Shown here one piece after another: positions 5,694 to 11,469 of a DNA stretch of 16,099 nt; positions within the stretch are counted from its first letter, which is position 1, and every line of letters begins with the position of its first letter. The position numbers were made by a program, and so were the translations under genes. Below the pieces are notes generated by a model. It was not told the DNA's origin. It made no database searches and saw nothing but the letters and a program-made list of their open reading frames with translations. This DNA comes from a virus (taxonomy: Duplodnaviria > Heunggongvirae > Uroviricota > Caudoviricetes), in the IMG/VR virus record IMGVR_UViG_2802429227_000005, positions 1-16,099 of that record; one strand, given 5' to 3'.

Positions 5694-5846
5694 TCATTTC
5701 CTGCGATACCACGGAAGGTTGATAGCTGATTTCATCGCTTTATTTGCTTCAAGCCACATTTTGGAATCACCAATAAATCTGGCTATTACTGCTTTGTTCT
5801 GTGCAGCACGAAGCATCTGGTGATTAATGGCTATTTCATTGCGCAT
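5694..5846 (-). CDS. Small hypothetical protein (50 aa) in the kil position
   Basis: Manual translation: MRNEIAINHQMLRAAQNKAVIARFIGDSKMWLEANKAMKSAINLPWYRRK; start overlaps the 3' end of the CIII-like gene; between cIII-like and the recombination genes as kil is in lambda. Confidence 0.3.
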   Translation of the reverse strand: MRNEIAINHQMLRAAQNKAVIARFIGDSKMWLEANKAMKSAINLPWYRRK

Positions 5847-5965
5847 AACGCCTCCAGTTGTTTCTTTGCTGCTCTGATTAATTGTTTAACTCGGCGTGAT
5901 AATTCAGATTCGTGCGGGTAGAAAGCGGACATGACGCCGCTACCCGCGAGCTGAAAGTGCATCAT
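5831..5965 (-). CDS. cIII: CIII-like protein (44 aa; putative FtsH inhibitor that would stabilise CII)
   Basis: Translation MMHFQLAGSGVMSAFYPHESELSRRVKQLIRAAKKQLEALCAMK aligns in pattern with lambda CIII (...AGWPVAGCPSESLLERITRKLRDGWKRL...); GGAG 6 nt upstream of the ATG-ATG. The ORF-track entry 5831..6070 has a longer, probably spurious N-terminal extension. Confidence 0.5.
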   Translation of the reverse strand: MMHFQLAGSGVMSAFYPHESELSRRVKQLIRAAKKQLEALCAMK

Positions 5966-6025
5966 GGGTAACTCCTTATATTTGATTGCATAACGAAAAC
6001 GCCTCGAGTGAAGCGTTATTGGTAT

Positions 6026-6055
6026 GCATATAAAAAGGCCCTCACATTGGAGGGC
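6026..6055 (-). terminator. Rho-independent terminator candidate in the PL operon (between ral and cIII-like)
   Basis: Minus strand GCCCTC-CAATGT-GAGGGC (6-bp stem) followed by CTTTTTATAT. Confidence 0.5.
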
Positions 6056-6191
6056 AAAGAAGATTTCCAATAATCAGAACAAGTCGGCTCCTGTTTAGTT
6101 ACGAGCGACATTGCTCCGTGTATTCACTCGTTGGAATGAATACACAGTGCAGTGTTTATTCTGTTGTTTATGCCAAAAATAAAGGCCACCA

Positions 6192-7756: not shown

Positions 7757-8407
7757 TTAAGGAAGGTTTGCTAGCTTGGCATCAACGACAACGCCAATGA
7801 TTTTACAGTTCCCATTGATTTCAATCATTGGGTATTGTGGATTGAGTGGTTTCAGGAATTTTCTACCGGCATCAATAACTAACTTTTTGAATGTCGCCTC
7901 GTTTTCTCCTTCAAGTTTGGCGACTACCAGCTTTCCATTACGTGGTTCGACTTCTGGGTCGACGAGAATAATCATCCCCTCAGGAATACTCAGTCCTGCC
8001 GGGGCAGTCATTGAATCGCCTTTAACGTCGAGCCAAAAAGAGTCTTCAGAACAATCTACCGTTGTGTCGTACCAGTTATCTATTGCACGCCTATGATATG
8101 GCTCTACAGCTTCCATCCAACATCCTGCGCTTACCCAACTAATTAGAGGATACGAACCTCTTGGATCATGCCTGCTGTGATAGGCAATGTTTGAAAGACT
8201 ATCCTCTCCTTTCAACAGGTAATCAGGGGAGCACTGCAAAGCCTTGGCTAAGGCCAATAGGTTTTCGCCATTGGGCTCAGTTTCAGATCGCTCCCACTGG
8301 GAAATAGCAACATTAGACACGCCAACCATCTTGCCAAGGGCAGCCTGCCTAATCTTGAGTTCTTTTCTGCGAGCGCGAATACGCTCACCCATCAGTTGTG
8401 TATTCAT
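7757..8407 (-). CDS. c2: Phage repressor, P22 C2 type (HTH_XRE N-terminal domain plus LexA/S24-like C-terminal domain; 216 aa)
   Basis: Translation MNTQLMGERIRARRKELKIRQAALGKMVGVSNVAISQWERSETEP... matches the P22 c2 repressor almost residue for residue as I recall it; C-terminal GDSM and K (Ser-Lys dyad) self-cleavage motifs are present. Confidence 0.9.
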   Translation of the reverse strand: MNTQLMGERIRARRKELKIRQAALGKMVGVSNVAISQWERSETEPNGENLLALAKALQCSPDYLLKGEDSLSNIAYHSRHDPRGSYPLISWVSAGCWMEAVEPYHRRAIDNWYDTTVDCSEDSFWLDVKGDSMTAPAGLSIPEGMIILVDPEVEPRNGKLVVAKLEGENEATFKKLVIDAGRKFLKPLNPQYPMIEINGNCKIIGVVVDAKLANLP

Positions 8408-8487: not shown

Positions 8488-8673
8488 ATGTACAAAAAAG
8501 ATGTTATTGACCACTTCGGAACCCAGCGTGCTGTTGCTAAAGCACTAGGCATTAGCGATGCAGCAGTCTCTCAGTGGAAAGAAGTTATCCCAGAGAAAGA
8601 CGCCTATCGATTGGAAATCGTTACAGCTGGCGCCCTGAAGTATCAAGAAAGTGCTTACCGCCAAGCGGCATAA
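8488..8673 (+). CDS. cro: Cro repressor, P22 type (61 aa)
   Basis: Translation MYKKDVIDHFGTQRAVAKALGISDAAVSQWKEVIPEKDAYRLEIVTAGALKYQESAYRQAA matches P22 Cro as I recall it; GGAG Shine-Dalgarno; divergent from c2 across OR. Confidence 0.85.
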   Translation: MYKKDVIDHFGTQRAVAKALGISDAAVSQWKEVIPEKDAYRLEIVTAGALKYQESAYRQAA

Positions 8674-8680
8674 GCAAATT

Positions 8681-8720
8681 GCTCTTTAACAGTTCTGGCC
8701 TTTCACCTCTAACCGGGTGA
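8681..8720 (+). promoter_or_regulatory. nutR site: boxA (GCTCTTTAACA) plus a phi21-type boxB hairpin (TCACC-TCTAACC-GGGTGA)
   Basis: Read directly downstream of cro; boxB shares the CUAACC loop with nutL. Confidence 0.65.
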
Positions 8721-8778
8721 GCAAACATCAGCGGCAAATCCATTGGGTGTGCCGCTATAACTCAATATCAATATAGGA

Positions 8779-8811
8779 AAATTAACAAATGGCACAAGCA
8801 AGCTACAGCAA
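8779..8811 (-). promoter_or_regulatory. pRE-like CII-dependent promoter: TTGC-N6-TTGC (8798..8811) then 13 nt then -10 TAATTT (8779..8784), leftward
   Basis: Minus strand GCTTGCTGTAGCTTGC-TTGTGCCATTTGT-TAATTT; the TTGC repeats lie in the first codons of the cII-like gene, as in lambda pRE. Confidence 0.55.
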
Positions 8812-9085
8812 GCCAACACAGCGAGAAATTGATCGCGCTGAAACTGATTTACTCATCAACCTGTCAACGCTTACCCAGCGCGGTCTGGCAAAGATGATTG
8901 GCTGTCATGAATCGAAGATAAGCAGAACGGACTGGAGATTTATTGCTTCGGTCTTGTGTGCTTTCGGAATGGCATCAGACATCAGTCCGATTAGCAGGGC
9001 TTTTAAGTATGCGCTTGATGAAATCACAAAGAAAAAATCCCCGGTGGCCGCCGGGGACTCTAAGCAAATTGATATGCAATTCTGA
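8789..9085 (+). CDS. c1: CII-like transcriptional activator (P22 c1 type; 98 aa)
   Basis: Pattern similarity to lambda CII: ...ESKISRTDWRF... against ...KSQISRWKRDW..., and C-terminus TKKKSPVAAGDSKQIDMQF against TNKKRPAATERSEQIQMEF; position after cro and nutR. Confidence 0.75.
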   Translation: MAQASYSKPTQREIDRAETDLLINLSTLTQRGLAKMIGCHESKISRTDWRFIASVLCAFGMASDISPISRAFKYALDEITKKKSPVAAGDSKQIDMQF

Positions 9086-9108
9086 GGGAATTACTGGATC
9101 AATCCACA
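9031..9108 (-). ncRNA. OOP-like antisense RNA candidate (about 78 nt), with an extended -10 promoter and a terminator inside the 3' end of the cII-like gene
   Basis: Minus-strand hairpin CCCCGG-CGGCCA-CCGGGG (plus 9039..9056) followed by ATTTTTTC; about 77 nt upstream on the minus strand is TGtCATAAT (plus 9115..9123). Geometry mirrors lambda pO/OOP. Confidence 0.5.
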
Positions 9109-9117
9109 GGAGTCATT

Positions 9118-9279
9118 ATGACAAAACGTCGTAAGAAATACCAGGAAAAAGAAGAGATTCGACACCCTGATTCACCTGAGGGATTAGTGGTAGCCGCAGC
9201 AAATAACAGGGCGTTCGCAGAGCGCCTTGTTGGTGTTTACAGACTAGCCAAAGCAGGAGTGAAACATGGGCGTCGTTAA
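9118..9279 (+). CDS. Hypothetical small basic protein (53 aa; below the ORF-track cutoff) between c1 and the O-like gene
   Basis: Manual translation [53 protein letters not shown]; strong AGGAG Shine-Dalgarno 5 nt upstream of the ATG; overlaps the O-like start by 14 nt in another frame. Confidence 0.3.
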   Translation: MTKRRKKYQEKEEIRHPDSPEGLVVAAANNRAFAERLVGVYRLAKAGVKHGRR

Positions 9280-10096
9280 GTTAGCTGATTACAGGCCTCA
9301 ACTGGAGGTCGTGGAGCATCGCGTGGCAGAACTCGAAGATGGCTACACTCGGACTGCAAACACACTGTTAGAAGCCGCCATGCTTTCTGGACTTACTCTA
9401 CATCAGTTACTGATTGTTATGGCTGTGTGGCGCAAGACATACGGTTACAACAAAAAAATAGATTGGATCGGAAACGAACAGTTCGCTGAACTCACTGGCA
9501 TGGCACCAACCAAATGCTCTACCGCCAAAAACGAGCTTATCAGAATGGGAGTTCTCATTCAGGTGGGGCGTCAAGTTGGTATGAATACAAACATTTCCGA
9601 GTGGAAAACGAAAGTTAACGGATTCGGTAAAACATTTACCAATTCGGTAAAACAAACCTTCACCAAATCGGTAAAAAGCAATTTACCGAATCAGTCAAAC
9701 ACAAAAGACAATATACAAAAGACAATAAATACAAATACCCCCTTACCCCCTAACGGGGGCGGCGATGGGCAGGTTAAACCTGAACGTCGCAAGGCAGAAC
9801 GAATCGACTACGAATCCTTCCTGAACGCCTACAACACCGAAGTCGGTGACAGACTTCCACATGCTGTTGCGGTCAACGAGAAACGCAAACGCCGCCTGAA
9901 GAAAATCATCCCGCAACTGAAAACGCCAAACGTGGACGGTTTCAGAGCGTATGTCAGGGCGTTTGTGCATCAGGCCAAGCCGTTTTACTTCGGAGACAAC
10001 GACACGGGCTGGACGGCAGATTTTGATTACCTGCTGAGGGAAGATTCGTTAACGGGAGTGCGGGAAGGGAAGTTTGCAGACAGGGGGATTGCATGA
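9266..10096 (+). CDS. O: Replication initiator, lambda O-like N-terminal domain (P22 gene 18 type; 276 aa)
   Basis: N-terminal region aligns with lambda O ([18 protein letters not shown]...WRKTYGYNK...NISEW against VADLDDGYARLSNMLLEA...LRKTYGWNK...NISEW); iterons inside the gene. Confidence 0.8.
9622..9737. repeat. Origin of replication inside the O-like gene: ATTCGGTAAAAC iterons followed by an AT-rich stretch
   Basis: Direct repeats ATTCGGTAAAAC at 9622..9633 and 9642..9653, degenerate AATCGGTAAAAA at 9666..9677, inverted TTTACCGAAT at 9682..9691, then AT-rich 9700..9737. Confidence 0.6.
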
Positions 10097-11469
10097 AACA
10101 GGATATCGAAGCGAGCGTTATCGGTGGCTTGCTGATTGGTGGATTAACACCAACTGCCAGTGACGTTCTGGCAACGCTGGAGCCGGAAGCGTTTTCAATT
10201 CCGCTCTACCGGAAAGCCTTCGAGGTTATCCGCAAGCAGGCGAGAAACAGAAACCTAATCGACGCGCTGATGGTTGCCGAGGCGTGCGGAGAGGAGCATT
10301 TCACGTCAATCCTGATGACCAGCAAAAACTGCCCGAGTGCCGCAAACCTGAAGGGATATGCCGGAATGGTCGCGGATAACTATCACCGCCGTCTGGTGCT
10401 GGAAATCATGGATGAAATGCGTGAACCAATTCAGAGCGGAACCATCGACGCATCGAGTCAGGCGATGGATGAACTTGTAAAGCGTCTTTCAGCCATCAGA
10501 AAGCCACGTGACGAGGTTAAACCTGTACGGTTAGGGGAAATCATCACCGACTACACTGACACGCTTGACAGGCGTCTGAGGAACGGAGAAGAGTCCGATA
10601 CCCTGAAGACCGGAATCGAAGAACTTGATGCCATCACCGGAGGGATGAACGCGGAAGACCTTGTGATAATCGCTGCTCGTCCTGGTATGGGGAAAACCGA
10701 ACTGGCGCTGAAGATTGCCGAAGGCGTTGCAAGCCGCGTTATTCCTGGTTCTGACGTCCGGCGCGGAGTGTTGATTTTCTCGATGGAAATGAGCGCATTG
10801 CAGATTGCAGAGCGAAGCATTGCCAACGCCGGGAGGATGCCGGTTAGCGTGCTGCGAAATCCTGCTTCGATGGATGACGAAGGCTGGGCGCGCGTTGCTA
10901 ACGGCATGAGTCAGCTTGCAGATTTGGATGTATGGGTAGTCGATGCCTCGCGGTTATCGGTCGAAGAAATACGCTCAATCGCAGAACGGCACAAACAGGA
11001 AAATCCAAACCTGTCACTCATCATGGTGGATTATCTTGGCCTGATTGAGAAGCCGAAAGCAGATCGCAACGACCTCGCAATTGCTCACATCTCCGGAAGC
11101 CTGAAGGCGATGGCGAAAGACCTGAAAACACCGGTTATCCCCCTGAGTCAGCTTTCGCGCGATGTTGAGAAGCGACCAAACAAACGCCCGACAAACGCAG
11201 ATTTGCGTGATTCAGGAAGCATTGAACAGGACGCAGACTCAATCATCATGCTCTATCGGGAAGCGGTATATGACGAGAACAGTAGCGCCGCGCCATTTGC
11301 TGAAATCATCGTGACGAAAAACCGTTTTGGCTCACTTGGTACGGTTTACCAGCGGTTCTGCAACGGACACTTTGTTGCATGTGACCAGGATGAAGCCAGA
11401 CAGATTTGCACAACATCAAATGCACCCGCTGCACGTGGCAGACGATATGCACAAGGGGCTGACGTATGA
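10093..11469 (+). CDS. Replicative DNA helicase, DnaB-like (P22 gene 12 type; 458 aa)
   Basis: Walker A ([15 protein letters not shown]), DnaB-type architecture and length; ATGA overlap with the O-like stop. Confidence 0.85.

What the first reader, a model, noticed from the sequence alone, without database searches (positions are those of the whole stretch)
9118..9279. Unannotated 53-aa basic ORF with a strong Shine-Dalgarno between cII-like and O-like genes, overlapping the OOP promoter
AGGAG lies 5 nt upstream of an ATG that opens a 53-codon frame ending 14 nt into the O-like gene. Lambda has only a short spacer between cII and O, and the gap here is about 180 bp. The putative pO -10 overlaps this ORF's start codon, so sense translation and antisense transcription would compete at the same nucleotides.
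Basis: seen in the sequence. Interest (0 to 1): 0.4.

Follow-up and report, generated by a model that had tools for sequence, protein, structure and literature searches.

The report
Known small phage gene (HK97 gp53)
The 53-codon frame is a real small protein gene under purifying selection, already catalogued as gene 53 of phage HK97 and widespread in E. coli and Salmonella prophages; its function is still unknown.

Summary
AGGAG (9108-9112) lies 5 nt upstream of ATG 9118. The 53-codon frame ends at TAA 9277-9279, 14 nt into the O-like gene (ATG 9266).

The ORF is not new. It is HK97 gene 53, Sf6 gene 42 and ES18 gp58, and matches PHROG 1331 at E = 1e-37. It occurs in 97 phage records and in 571 of 5426 complete E. 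coli genomes, almost always annotated "hypothetical protein". Hayes et al. 2012 already describe the cII-oop-"orf"-O layout.

It is a real coding gene:
- It is intact in 17 divergent Enterobacterales loci, down to 57% amino-acid identity.
- All indels are in frame.
- dN/dS is about 0.12, against more than 1.5 in the other two frames.

The Shine-Dalgarno, the ATG and the first codons are the same conserved "boundary sequence" that starts gene O in lambda. The pO -10 overlap with a start codon is therefore ancestral, not special to this ORF.

In sampled phage contigs with this boundary sequence, that ATG opens gp53 in 41, the unrelated P22 orf48 in 27, or O directly in about 38.

The protein is 6 kDa with pI 10.7. 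It is predicted to have a disordered basic tail and an amphipathic helix. It has no homologue of known function.

I infer an accessory role tied to the replication initiator. That role is not shown.

The parts
9118..9279 (+). 53-codon gene of the HK97 gp53 family (PHROG 1331). It encodes a 6.1-kDa protein, pI 10.7: [53 protein letters not shown].
   Evidence: ORF list. PHROG 1331 matches full length at E = 1.4e-37. It is identical in amino-acid sequence to HK97 Gp53 and Sf6 gene 42. dN/dS is about 0.12 and the frame is intact in 17 divergent loci.
9108..9112 (+). Shine-Dalgarno AGGAG for the 53-aa gene, 5-nt spacer. It is homologous to the Shine-Dalgarno of lambda gene O.
   Evidence: Sequence and alignment with lambda.
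9093..9125 (.). Conserved lambdoid 'boundary sequence' (Sf6 bsq5, 'sequence 5' of the HK620 paper). It comprises the oop 5' end, the Shine-Dalgarno, the ATG and codons 1-3.
   Evidence: Sf6 annotates bsq5 from -25 to +8 around the gene 42 ATG. Hayes 2012 describes a 33-bp region conserved in 23 lambdoid phages. It is shared with lambda and with 120 IMG/VR contigs.
9128..9296 (+). Mosaic cassette: the gp53 body plus the first 10 codons ([10 protein letters not shown]) of the initiator gene. This is the unit that is present or absent between relatives.
   Evidence: Homology break-points fall at query positions 339, 508 and 554. Cassette-linked initiators share only [10 protein letters not shown].
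9255..9259 (+). Shine-Dalgarno AGGAG of the O-like initiator gene, inside the 3' end of the 53-aa gene, 6 nt upstream of ATG 9266.
   Evidence: Sequence. It is conserved as GGAG or GGGG in all 17 loci, and synonymous change is reduced here (pS 0.40 against about 0.69).
9266..10096 (+). O-like replication initiator (276 aa) containing four iterons at 9610-9699.
   Evidence: Pfam PF04492 at E = 4e-36. PHROG 345. Repeats.
8789..9085 (+). cII-like transcriptional activator gene.
   Evidence: Pfam PF05269 at E = 2.5e-32.
9034..9061 (-). oop-type intrinsic terminator hairpin, followed by a T-run at about 9024-9033, overlapping the 3' end of cII.
   Evidence: Terminator scan. Inverted repeat. Aligns with lambda tO.
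9029..9107 (-). Predicted oop-like antisense RNA of about 79 nt. The 5' end is placed by homology to lambda oop +1. No transcript has been observed.
   Evidence: Alignment with lambda. P22 and HK629 records annotate oop at the equivalent place. Rfam has no model that matches.
9115..9123 (-). pO-like extended -10 (TGTCATAAT on the minus strand), overlapping ATG 9118-9120 and codon 2.
   Evidence: Identical to lambda over this stretch. The lambda pO -10 has been mutated experimentally at or next to the O start codon. Reading it as an extended -10 is my inference.
9138..9143 (-). Only candidate pO -35 (TGGTAT, 2 of 6 matches, 17-nt spacer), lying in codons 7-9 of the 53-aa gene. It is weak.
   Evidence: Sequence. 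The consensus scan finds no sigma-70 promoter in 8700-9500. Hayes 2012 notes that the -35 regions differ once the sequence diverges from lambda.

Best explanation
The frame 9118-9279 is a genuine small protein gene of the HK97 gp53 family (PHROG 1331). It is a dispensable accessory gene of the lambdoid early-right (pR) operon and belongs to the replication module.

Shown:
- It is translated from the conserved 'boundary-sequence' initiation region (AGGAG, 5 nt, ATG) that in lambda starts gene O itself.
- Its amino-acid sequence is under strong purifying selection, in both the basic tail and the helix.
- It always ends 14 nt inside a replication-initiator gene whose own Shine-Dalgarno lies in its last codons.
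- It travels as a cassette with the first 10 codons of that initiator ([10 protein letters not shown]). The cassette is joined to at least three different initiator bodies.
- An unrelated but equally small and basic ORF (P22 orf48) occupies the same slot in other phages. In lambda the slot is empty.

Inferred:
- The gene is expressed with cII, O and the helicase after N-mediated antitermination.
- Ribosomes finishing it deliver or boost initiation at the initiator start (translational coupling).
- The 6-kDa product has a disordered K/R-rich tail and an amphipathic helix with a heptad pattern. It probably acts by binding nucleic acid or a replication or host protein, and so tunes the amount or activity of the initiator rather than being essential.

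I put about 0.9 on 'real, conserved, already-catalogued gene'. I put about 0.35 on the specific replication-tuning role. The confidence of 0.8 given for this explanation refers to the shown part.

The pO/oop antisense unit next to it is the ordinary lambda arrangement and is not functionally tied to this ORF.
For: Identity:
- PHROG 1331 matches full length at E = 1.4e-37.
- The protein is 100% identical to HK97 Gp53, Sf6 gene 42 and others, in 97 phage records.
- It occurs in 571 of 5426 complete E. coli genomes.

Coding:
- The frame is intact in 17 loci from Edwardsiella, Serratia, Rahnella, Brenneria and others, at 57-100% amino-acid identity. Only 3- and 6-nt indels occur.
- Nucleotide diversity by codon position is 0.23, 0.15 and 0.46.
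- dN/dS is 0.13-0.18 in this frame and 1.5-2.7 in the other two.
- The bootstrap estimate is 0.12 (0.06-0.23). The tail gives 0.117 and the helix 0.113.
- Conserved residues use several synonymous codons.

Linkage to the initiator:
- The 14-nt overlap ATGGGCGTCGTTAA is present in every locus.
- The downstream genes are Phage_rep_O types or the Sf6 gp43/HK022 gp54 type, which has no Pfam hit. These share only [10 protein letters not shown].
- The upstream gene varies: cII, YdaT-like, KilAC antirepressor domain or DnaN-like.

Slot:
- In 120 IMG/VR contigs with the boundary sequence, the ATG opens gp53 in 41, orf48 in 27, and O directly in about 38.

Literature:
- The cII-oop-'orf'-O-P organisation is described, and lambda is 'naturally missing' the orf (PMC3349717).

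Protein:
- AlphaFold2 predicts residues 1-20 disordered and helices at 21-29 and 31-49, with pLDDT 68.
- pI is 10.7.
- Invariant and hydrophobic residues fall at 23, 27, 30, 34, 37, 41, 44 and 48.
Against: - There is no expression, proteomic or genetic evidence for this gene in anything I could search.
- There is no homologue of known function. Pfam, NCBIfam, PADLOC, PDB Foldseek and an HMM search of 1.84 billion proteins gave nothing informative.
- The structure model has only moderate confidence.
- The initiator has its own canonical Shine-Dalgarno, so coupling is not required.
- No conserved mRNA structure sequesters that Shine-Dalgarno. The RNAalifold consensus is only -5 kcal/mol.
- Phages lacking the gene, such as lambda, replicate normally, so any replication role is modulatory at most.
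- Synonymous sites are near saturation (pS about 0.7), so the dN/dS value is approximate, though its direction is not in doubt.
Confidence: 0.8

Rival explanations
1. It is a real gene, but its product is a host-directed or phage-competition accessory factor (anti-defence, exclusion or host takeover). Its position next to the initiator would then be only a convenient insertion slot at a recombination-prone boundary sequence.
For: - Presence or absence varies between close relatives, and an unrelated ORF replaces it in the same slot.
- The taxonomic range is narrow: 24 clusters in 1.84 billion proteins.
- It is small and basic with no known domain. Many such phage ORFs turn out to be counter-defence or takeover factors (general knowledge; screens such as PMC12373910).
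Against: - The 14-nt overlap with an initiator gene is invariant, and the gene is co-inherited with the initiator's first 10 codons, whatever lies upstream.
- It has no promoter or terminator of its own, unlike classical morons.
- PADLOC has no match.
- It is absent from the accessory-gene screen whose supplements I could search.
Confidence: 0.3
2. It is a purely cis-acting leader ORF. Only the act of translating it matters, to carry ribosomes to the initiator start or to unfold the mRNA. The peptide itself would have no function.
For: - The stop and start overlap, and the initiator's Shine-Dalgarno lies inside the ORF.
- The strong initiation region that serves O in lambda is used by this ORF instead.
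- P22 orf48 has the same topology with an 8-nt overlap.
Against: - dN/dS is about 0.12 across both tail and helix.
- Several residues are invariant over genera (L23, A27, F33, A34, R36).
- No conserved structure masks the initiator's Shine-Dalgarno.
- A pure leader would not keep its amino-acid sequence.
Confidence: 0.1
3. It is a lysis-lysogeny modulator acting on CII, oop or FtsH, in the manner of the small amphipathic-helix protein CIII. This would explain its place right after cII and on top of pO.
For: - Its size and predicted amphipathic helix resemble CIII.
- It is adjacent to cII and oop in most phages.
Against: - It has no sequence similarity to the window's own CIII-like ORF (hhalign probability 0.2%).
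- The phage already carries a CIII-like gene, within 5831-6070 on the minus strand.
- In 4 of 17 loci the upstream gene is not cII, while the downstream initiator is constant.
Confidence: 0.08
4. It is not a gene. The frame would be open by chance, with the sequence conserved for DNA- or RNA-level reasons such as the pO promoter, spacing between pO and ori, or an RNA structure.
For: - A 53-codon open frame has about an 8% chance per frame.
- The pO -10 and the putative -35 lie in its first 9 codons.
- A local hairpin at about 9204-9230 folds well in this window (z = -2.6).
Against: - Variation is concentrated at third codon positions and indels are in frame only.
- dN/dS is far below 1 in this frame alone.
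- The frame is intact in 17 of 17 divergent loci and 41 of 42 viral contigs. The one exception is a 1-nt loss in an A5 run.
- The hairpin and any long-range structure are not conserved.
Confidence: 0.02

Closest known systems
HK97 gene 53 (Gp53, AAF31131), also Sf6 gene 42, ES18 gp58 and epsilon34 gene 49; PHROG 1331
   Same: It is the same protein: 100% amino-acid identity to HK97 and Sf6. The length, the position between cII/oop and the initiator, and the 14-nt overlap are also the same.
   Different: Nothing of substance. The family has no assigned function, so membership names the ORF but does not explain it.
P22 orf48 (NP_059609; PHROG 1913, labelled 'tail protein' there, probably wrongly)
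   Same: - It occupies the same slot and uses the same boundary-sequence Shine-Dalgarno and ATG.
- An oop promoter is annotated over its start.
- It is small (48 aa) and equally basic (pI 10.4).
- Its stop overlaps the start of initiator gene 18.
- It is joined to the same sets of initiator bodies.
   Different: - It has no detectable sequence relationship (hhalign probability 0.05%).
- The overlap is 8 nt, not 14.
- It travels with a different initiator leader (MSN..., not [10 protein letters not shown]).
- It is an analogue by position, not a homologue.
Lambda gene O translation start with the pO/oop unit
   Same: The cII 3' end, the oop terminator, the oop 5' end, AGGAG, the 5-nt spacer, the ATG and ACA-AA are homologous and nearly identical. 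The pO -10 CATAAT overlaps the start codon in both.
   Different: In lambda that ATG opens the 299-aa O protein directly. Here it opens the 53-aa gene, and the initiator starts 148 nt further on from its own Shine-Dalgarno. The pO -35 region therefore lies in unrelated sequence and matches consensus poorly (TGGTAT).
Lambda CIII / P22 C3 (small amphipathic-helix regulators of FtsH)
   Same: It is a small early lambdoid protein of about 50 aa with a predicted amphipathic helix.
   Different: It has no sequence similarity. It lies in a different operon (pR, not pL). The window has its own CIII-like ORF. This is a resemblance of size only.

Membership tests
HK97 gp53 family (PHROG 1331) | Full-length match to the family profile | tested here: met
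   E = 1.4e-37, residues 1-53 on profile positions 1-53 of 53. 68 homologues at E <= 1e-3.
HK97 gp53 family (PHROG 1331) | Length of 52-55 aa with a basic N-terminus, PDSP[ED]GL and N..FAER...G..RLA motifs | tested here: met
   Alignment A1. Invariant residues are L23, A27, F33, A34, R36 and R52.
HK97 gp53 family (PHROG 1331) | Lies immediately upstream of a replication-initiator gene that starts [10 protein letters not shown], with a 14-nt overlap | tested here: met
   Window positions 9266 and 9279. The same holds in the 17 genome loci and in the viral contigs.
HK97 gp53 family (PHROG 1331) | A defined biochemical activity | not testable with these tools
   None is known for any member. All source names are 'hypothetical protein'.
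P22 orf48 family (PHROG 1913) | Sequence similarity to orf48 | tested here: not met
   hhalign probability 0.05%. orf48 maps to a different PHROG.
Lambda-type oop/pO antisense unit | Intrinsic terminator on the minus strand overlapping the cII 3' end | tested here: met
   An 11-bp G+C-rich stem at 9061-9034 followed by a T-run. Aligns with lambda tO.
Lambda-type oop/pO antisense unit | pO -10 hexamer homologous to lambda, overlapping the downstream start codon | tested here: met
   CATAAT is the complement of 9115-9120, identical to lambda. The lambda -10 mutations lie at or next to the O ATG.
Lambda-type oop/pO antisense unit | Recognisable -35 hexamer at 16-18 nt | tested here: not met
   The best candidate is TGGTAT, 2 of 6 matches. 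The consensus scan finds no promoter in 8700-9500. A TG extended -10 may compensate, which is my inference.
Lambda-type oop/pO antisense unit | An oop transcript of about 77 nt is made | not testable with these tools
   Rfam has no matching model. This needs 5'-RACE or RNA-seq.
Translationally coupled upstream ORF (leader ORF) | The stop of the upstream ORF overlaps or abuts the start of the downstream gene | tested here: met
   A 14-nt overlap conserved in all loci.
Translationally coupled upstream ORF (leader ORF) | Downstream translation depends on upstream translation, for example through a masked Shine-Dalgarno | tested here: inconclusive
   The initiator has an exposed canonical AGGAG. 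The consensus fold is only -5.2 kcal/mol. One conserved 4-bp contact (UCAC with GUGA) lies next to the Shine-Dalgarno but shows no covariation. Dependence needs reporter fusions.
Translationally coupled upstream ORF (leader ORF) | The peptide sequence itself is unconstrained (pure cis role) | tested here: not met
   dN/dS is about 0.12 in both the tail and the helix.
Moron (autonomous accessory cassette) | Own promoter and terminator flanking the gene | tested here: not met
   There is no plus-strand promoter or terminator around 9100-9300. The gene is embedded in the pR operon and overlaps its neighbour.
CIII-type FtsH inhibitor | Sequence similarity to the CIII amphipathic region | tested here: not met
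   hhalign probability 0.2% against the window's CIII-like ORF.

The most novel reading that the evidence does not exclude
gp53 and the unrelated P22 orf48 may be convergent, functionally equivalent small basic proteins that control the replication initiator they are fused to. They could set its translation, protect or expose its conserved N-terminal leader ([10 protein letters not shown] or MSN...), or load it on ori. The cII/O slot would then encode a previously unrecognised, exchangeable regulatory layer of lambdoid replication that lambda itself has lost.
Probability: 0.2. Interest if true: 0.45.

Novelty: already known. Interest (0 to 1): 0.15.

Why it matters
For the scan, this closes the finding. 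The ORF is real but already catalogued, and its overlap with pO is the ordinary lambda architecture.

More broadly, the gene sits in about a tenth of complete E. coli genomes, including Stx-converting prophages of O157:H7. It is under strong purifying selection and is physically welded to the replication initiator. Yet nobody knows what it does.

The comparative picture assembled here makes a simple genetic test worthwhile in HK97, Sf6 or P22:
- There is one slot with three states: gp53, orf48 or empty.
- Each small ORF is co-inherited with its own initiator leader.
- Each is joined to several initiator bodies.

The expected payoff is modest. At best the gene is a modulator of phage replication or of early gene dosage.

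Tried and rejected
- Known domains. Pfam, NCBIfam and PADLOC gave no hit.
- Remote homology. A profile HMM search of 1.84 billion representatives found only 24 small proteins of the same family and no fusion to a larger protein. This rejects the idea that it is a split-off N-terminal domain of an initiator.
- Structure. The AlphaFold2 model has pLDDT 68, and Foldseek against the PDB found nothing. I did not pursue further fold searches because a single helix is uninformative.
- Homology to P22 orf48 or to CIII. Both rejected by hhalign.
- RNA element.
  - Rfam gave only chance hits.
  - The window's hairpin at about 9204-9230 and a long-range pairing to the initiator's Shine-Dalgarno are not conserved.
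  - One local stem shows GC/CG exchange, but within one clade and coupled to an Ala-to-Pro change. I treat that as unproven.
- CII-binding sites or other repeats inside the ORF. None found. The only exact TTGC-N6-TTGC nearby is the pRE-type site at 8798-8811.
- Consensus sigma-70 promoter for pO. The scan did not find one, so pO is assigned by homology only.
- Literature. Searches for HK97 gp53, PHROG 1331, 'between cII and O' and P22 orf48 gave no functional study. The 'orf48' of the accessory-gene screen PMC12373910 uses that paper's own numbering (gnarl1), and the gp53 sequence is not in its supplements.
- One search failed on syntax and was not repeated.

Full report
**1. What is in the sequence**

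The window is the immunity and replication region of a P22-like/lambdoid coliphage. Its genes are:
- a cI-type repressor at 7757-8407 on the minus strand
- a P22-type cro at 8488-8673
- cII at 8789-9085 (Pfam Phage_CII)
- the 53-codon frame at 9118-9279
- an O-like initiator at 9266-10096 (Pfam Phage_rep_O)
- a DnaB-like helicase at 10093-11469

The closest complete phage is Kapi1, at 96% identity over 65% of the window.

- AGGAG lies at 9108-9112, with a 5-nt spacer before ATG 9118.
- TAA lies at 9277-9279, giving a 14-nt overlap with the initiator ATG at 9266.
- The cII-to-O gap is 180 nt, against 32 nt in lambda.

An open frame of this length has about an 8% chance per frame. The ORF alone therefore proves little.

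**2. It is a known, annotated gene family**

- The protein matches PHROG 1331 over its whole length, E = 1.4e-37.
- It is identical to Gp53 of HK97, annotated in AF069529, and to Sf6 gene 42, described there as 'Phage HK97 53 protein homolog'.
- tblastn finds it in 97 phage records. These include HK97, Sf6, ES18, epsilon34, g341c, the HK and mEp series and many Stx-converting phages. It is nearly always 'hypothetical protein'.
- Its DNA is present at 99% identity or more in 571 of 5426 complete E. coli genomes, where PGAP annotates it. A few records omit it.
- Hayes et al. [quoted passage not shown]
  - They say lambda is 'naturally missing' the orf.
  - They mention the 162-nt HK97 ORF.
  - They describe the 33-bp conserved oop/pO segment, in which position 1 is the ATG of lambda O, of P22 orf48 homologues or of HK97 gp53 homologues.

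**3. It is a real coding gene**

Seventeen loci from different Enterobacterales genera carry a homologue at 57-100% amino-acid identity. They include Edwardsiella, Trabulsiella, Yokenella, Enterobacter, Citrobacter, Chimaeribacter, Serratia, Rahnella and Brenneria.
- The frame is intact in all 17, at 52-55 codons, and indels are only 3 or 6 nt.
- Diversity by codon position is 0.23, 0.15 and 0.46.
- Nei-Gojobori dN/dS is 0.18 overall and 0.13 for the core. The two other frames give 1.5-2.7.
- A codon bootstrap gives 0.12 (0.06-0.23). The basic tail (0.117) and the helix (0.113) are equally constrained.
- Invariant residues are encoded by several synonymous codons.
- In the last codons synonymous change drops (pS 0.40 against about 0.69). 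This is expected where the initiator's Shine-Dalgarno and start are embedded.
- Among 42 copies in IMG/VR contigs, only one is broken, by loss of one A in an A5 run.

**4. The start region is lambda's O start**

Alignment with lambda shows that window 9030-9126 is homologous to lambda. This stretch covers the cII 3' end, the oop terminator, the oop 5' end, AGGAG, the spacer, the ATG and ACA-AA. In lambda that ATG (38686) starts O. Sf6 annotates the same 33 nt as 'bsq5; boundary sequence'.

The minus-strand terminator is at 9061-9034. By homology, oop would start at 9107 and run about 79 nt.

The pO -10 (CATAAT, preceded by TG) is the complement of 9115-9123, so it overlaps the start codon. The same is true in lambda, where -10 mutations lie at or 2 bp from the O start (PMC3985674; PMC3349717).

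The -35 falls in gp53 codons 7-9 and is poor (TGGTAT). The consensus scan calls no promoter. pO activity here is therefore assumed, not shown.

The idea that translation and antisense transcription compete 'at the same nucleotides' mixes mRNA and DNA. The documented effect is pR/pO convergent-transcription interference.

**5. The slot and the cassette**

I scanned IMG/VR for the boundary sequence and read what the ATG opens in 120 contigs:

| What the ATG opens | Contigs |
|---|---|
| gp53 type | 41, plus 1 frameshifted |
| P22 orf48 type | 27 |
| lambda-type O directly, always followed by lambda P | about 38 |
| a 214-aa protein | 3 |

The remainder are truncated copies or chimeras.

P22 orf48 is 48 aa with pI 10.4. 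It shows no similarity to gp53 (hhalign probability 0.05%) and belongs to a different PHROG.

gp53 is always followed, with the same 14-nt overlap, by an initiator that begins [10 protein letters not shown]. After that leader the initiator continues as one of three types:
- a P22 gp18/HK97 gp54-type body
- an Sf6 gp43/HK022 gp54-type body, which has no Pfam hit and is 22% identical to the window's O
- a lambda-O-type body

orf48 is likewise always followed, with an 8-nt overlap, by initiators beginning MSN.

The upstream neighbour of gp53 varies: cII, a YdaT-like protein, a KilAC antirepressor domain or a DnaN-like protein.

Homology break-points at window positions 9127, 9296 and 9342 delimit the cassette. 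The gene is thus tied to the initiator, not to cII or oop.

**6. The protein**

- It is 6.1 kDa with pI 10.7 and net charge of about +8.
- AlphaFold2, run with a 35-sequence alignment, predicts residues 1-20 disordered and helices at 21-29 and 31-49. Mean pLDDT is 68.
- The conserved or hydrophobic residues at 23, 27, 30, 34, 37, 41, 44 and 48 follow a 4-3 heptad spacing. This hints at helix-helix packing and is my inference.
- No domain, structure or remote homologue was found.
- The family is confined to Enterobacterales, and all members are small.

**7. Mechanism**

Shown: this is a small protein gene under purifying selection, translated from the ancestral O initiation region and overlapping the initiator start.

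Inferred: it is expressed from pR with the replication genes. It may be translationally coupled to the initiator. Its basic tail and helix probably bind nucleic acid or a partner protein and tune the initiator's level or activity. Because lambda lacks it and an unrelated ORF can replace it, it is an accessory gene.

Rivals, with my confidence in each:
- a host-directed accessory factor that merely uses the slot (0.3)
- a pure cis-acting leader ORF (0.1, argued against by dN/dS)
- a CIII-like lysogeny modulator (0.08). There is no similarity, the phage has its own CIII-like ORF, and the upstream gene is not always cII.
- not a gene at all (0.02)

**8. Verdict**

The feature is already known as an uncharacterised conserved phage ORF, and its overlap with pO is the ordinary lambda arrangement. 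Interest is low. The only open question is the function of a very common small prophage protein.

Noticed in passing
window 8798-8811 (-): An exact TTGC-N6-TTGC motif (TTGCTGTAGCTTGC) lies inside the 5' end of cII. This is the position of the CII-activated pRE promoter in lambda and P22.
   Followed up: partly
window 9610-9699: Four iteron-like direct repeats of about 23 nt, spaced 20-24 nt apart, lie inside the O-like gene. A tandem 14-mer follows at 9701-9728. This is presumably the replication origin. A weak, spurious Rfam MIR8706 hit sits on the repeats.
   Followed up: partly
L142 (phage Kapi1) 8780-9052, equivalent to the window's cII/O slot: Kapi1, the closest complete phage, carries yet another occupant of the slot. 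It is a 90-aa ORF (phrog_2519, with a CDD Phage_rep_O fragment) upstream of a 315-aa O.
   Followed up: no
IMG/VR loci such as L060: In 3 contigs the same boundary-sequence ATG opens a 214-aa protein (MTYENDKFQVLKSMKVPDDF...) instead of a small ORF or O.
   Followed up: no
L016 2455-2991 (Serratia fonticola): A 178-aa ORF with weak similarity to the DNA polymerase III beta-clamp central domain (PF02767, E = 7e-4, below the Pfam cut-off) sits directly upstream of the gp53 homologue, where cII normally is.
   Followed up: no
L001 (MAG 'Bacillota bacterium') and L004 ('Chryseobacterium sp. 18061'): Contigs assigned to non-enterobacterial organisms carry enterobacterial-type cII-gp53-O loci, at 100% and 83% amino-acid identity. 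Contamination or mis-binning is likely.
   Followed up: no
L115 (IMG/VR): This is the only broken gp53 copy seen. One A is lost from the run GGAAAAAG, giving a 22-codon frame. It could be a homopolymer sequencing error or real decay.
   Followed up: yes
window 9266-9295 and the equivalent in L002-L017: The first 10 codons of the initiator ([10 protein letters not shown]) are conserved and co-inherited with gp53 across initiators that are otherwise unrelated. orf48-linked initiators all start MSN[LI]. The role of these leaders is unknown. A degradation or regulatory tag is possible.
   Followed up: partly
window 5694-5846 (-) and 5831-6070 (-): A Kil-like 50-aa ORF and a CIII-like ORF (MMHFQLAGSGVMSAFYPHESELSRRVKQLIRAAKKQLEALCAMK) lie in the leftward operon.
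   Followed up: partly
RefSeq NC_002371 (P22) orf48 and NC_019708 (mEp235): The orf48-type small ORF is labelled 'tail protein' through PHROG 1913. For an early-operon gene next to the replication initiator, this is almost certainly an annotation error that has been propagated.
   Followed up: no
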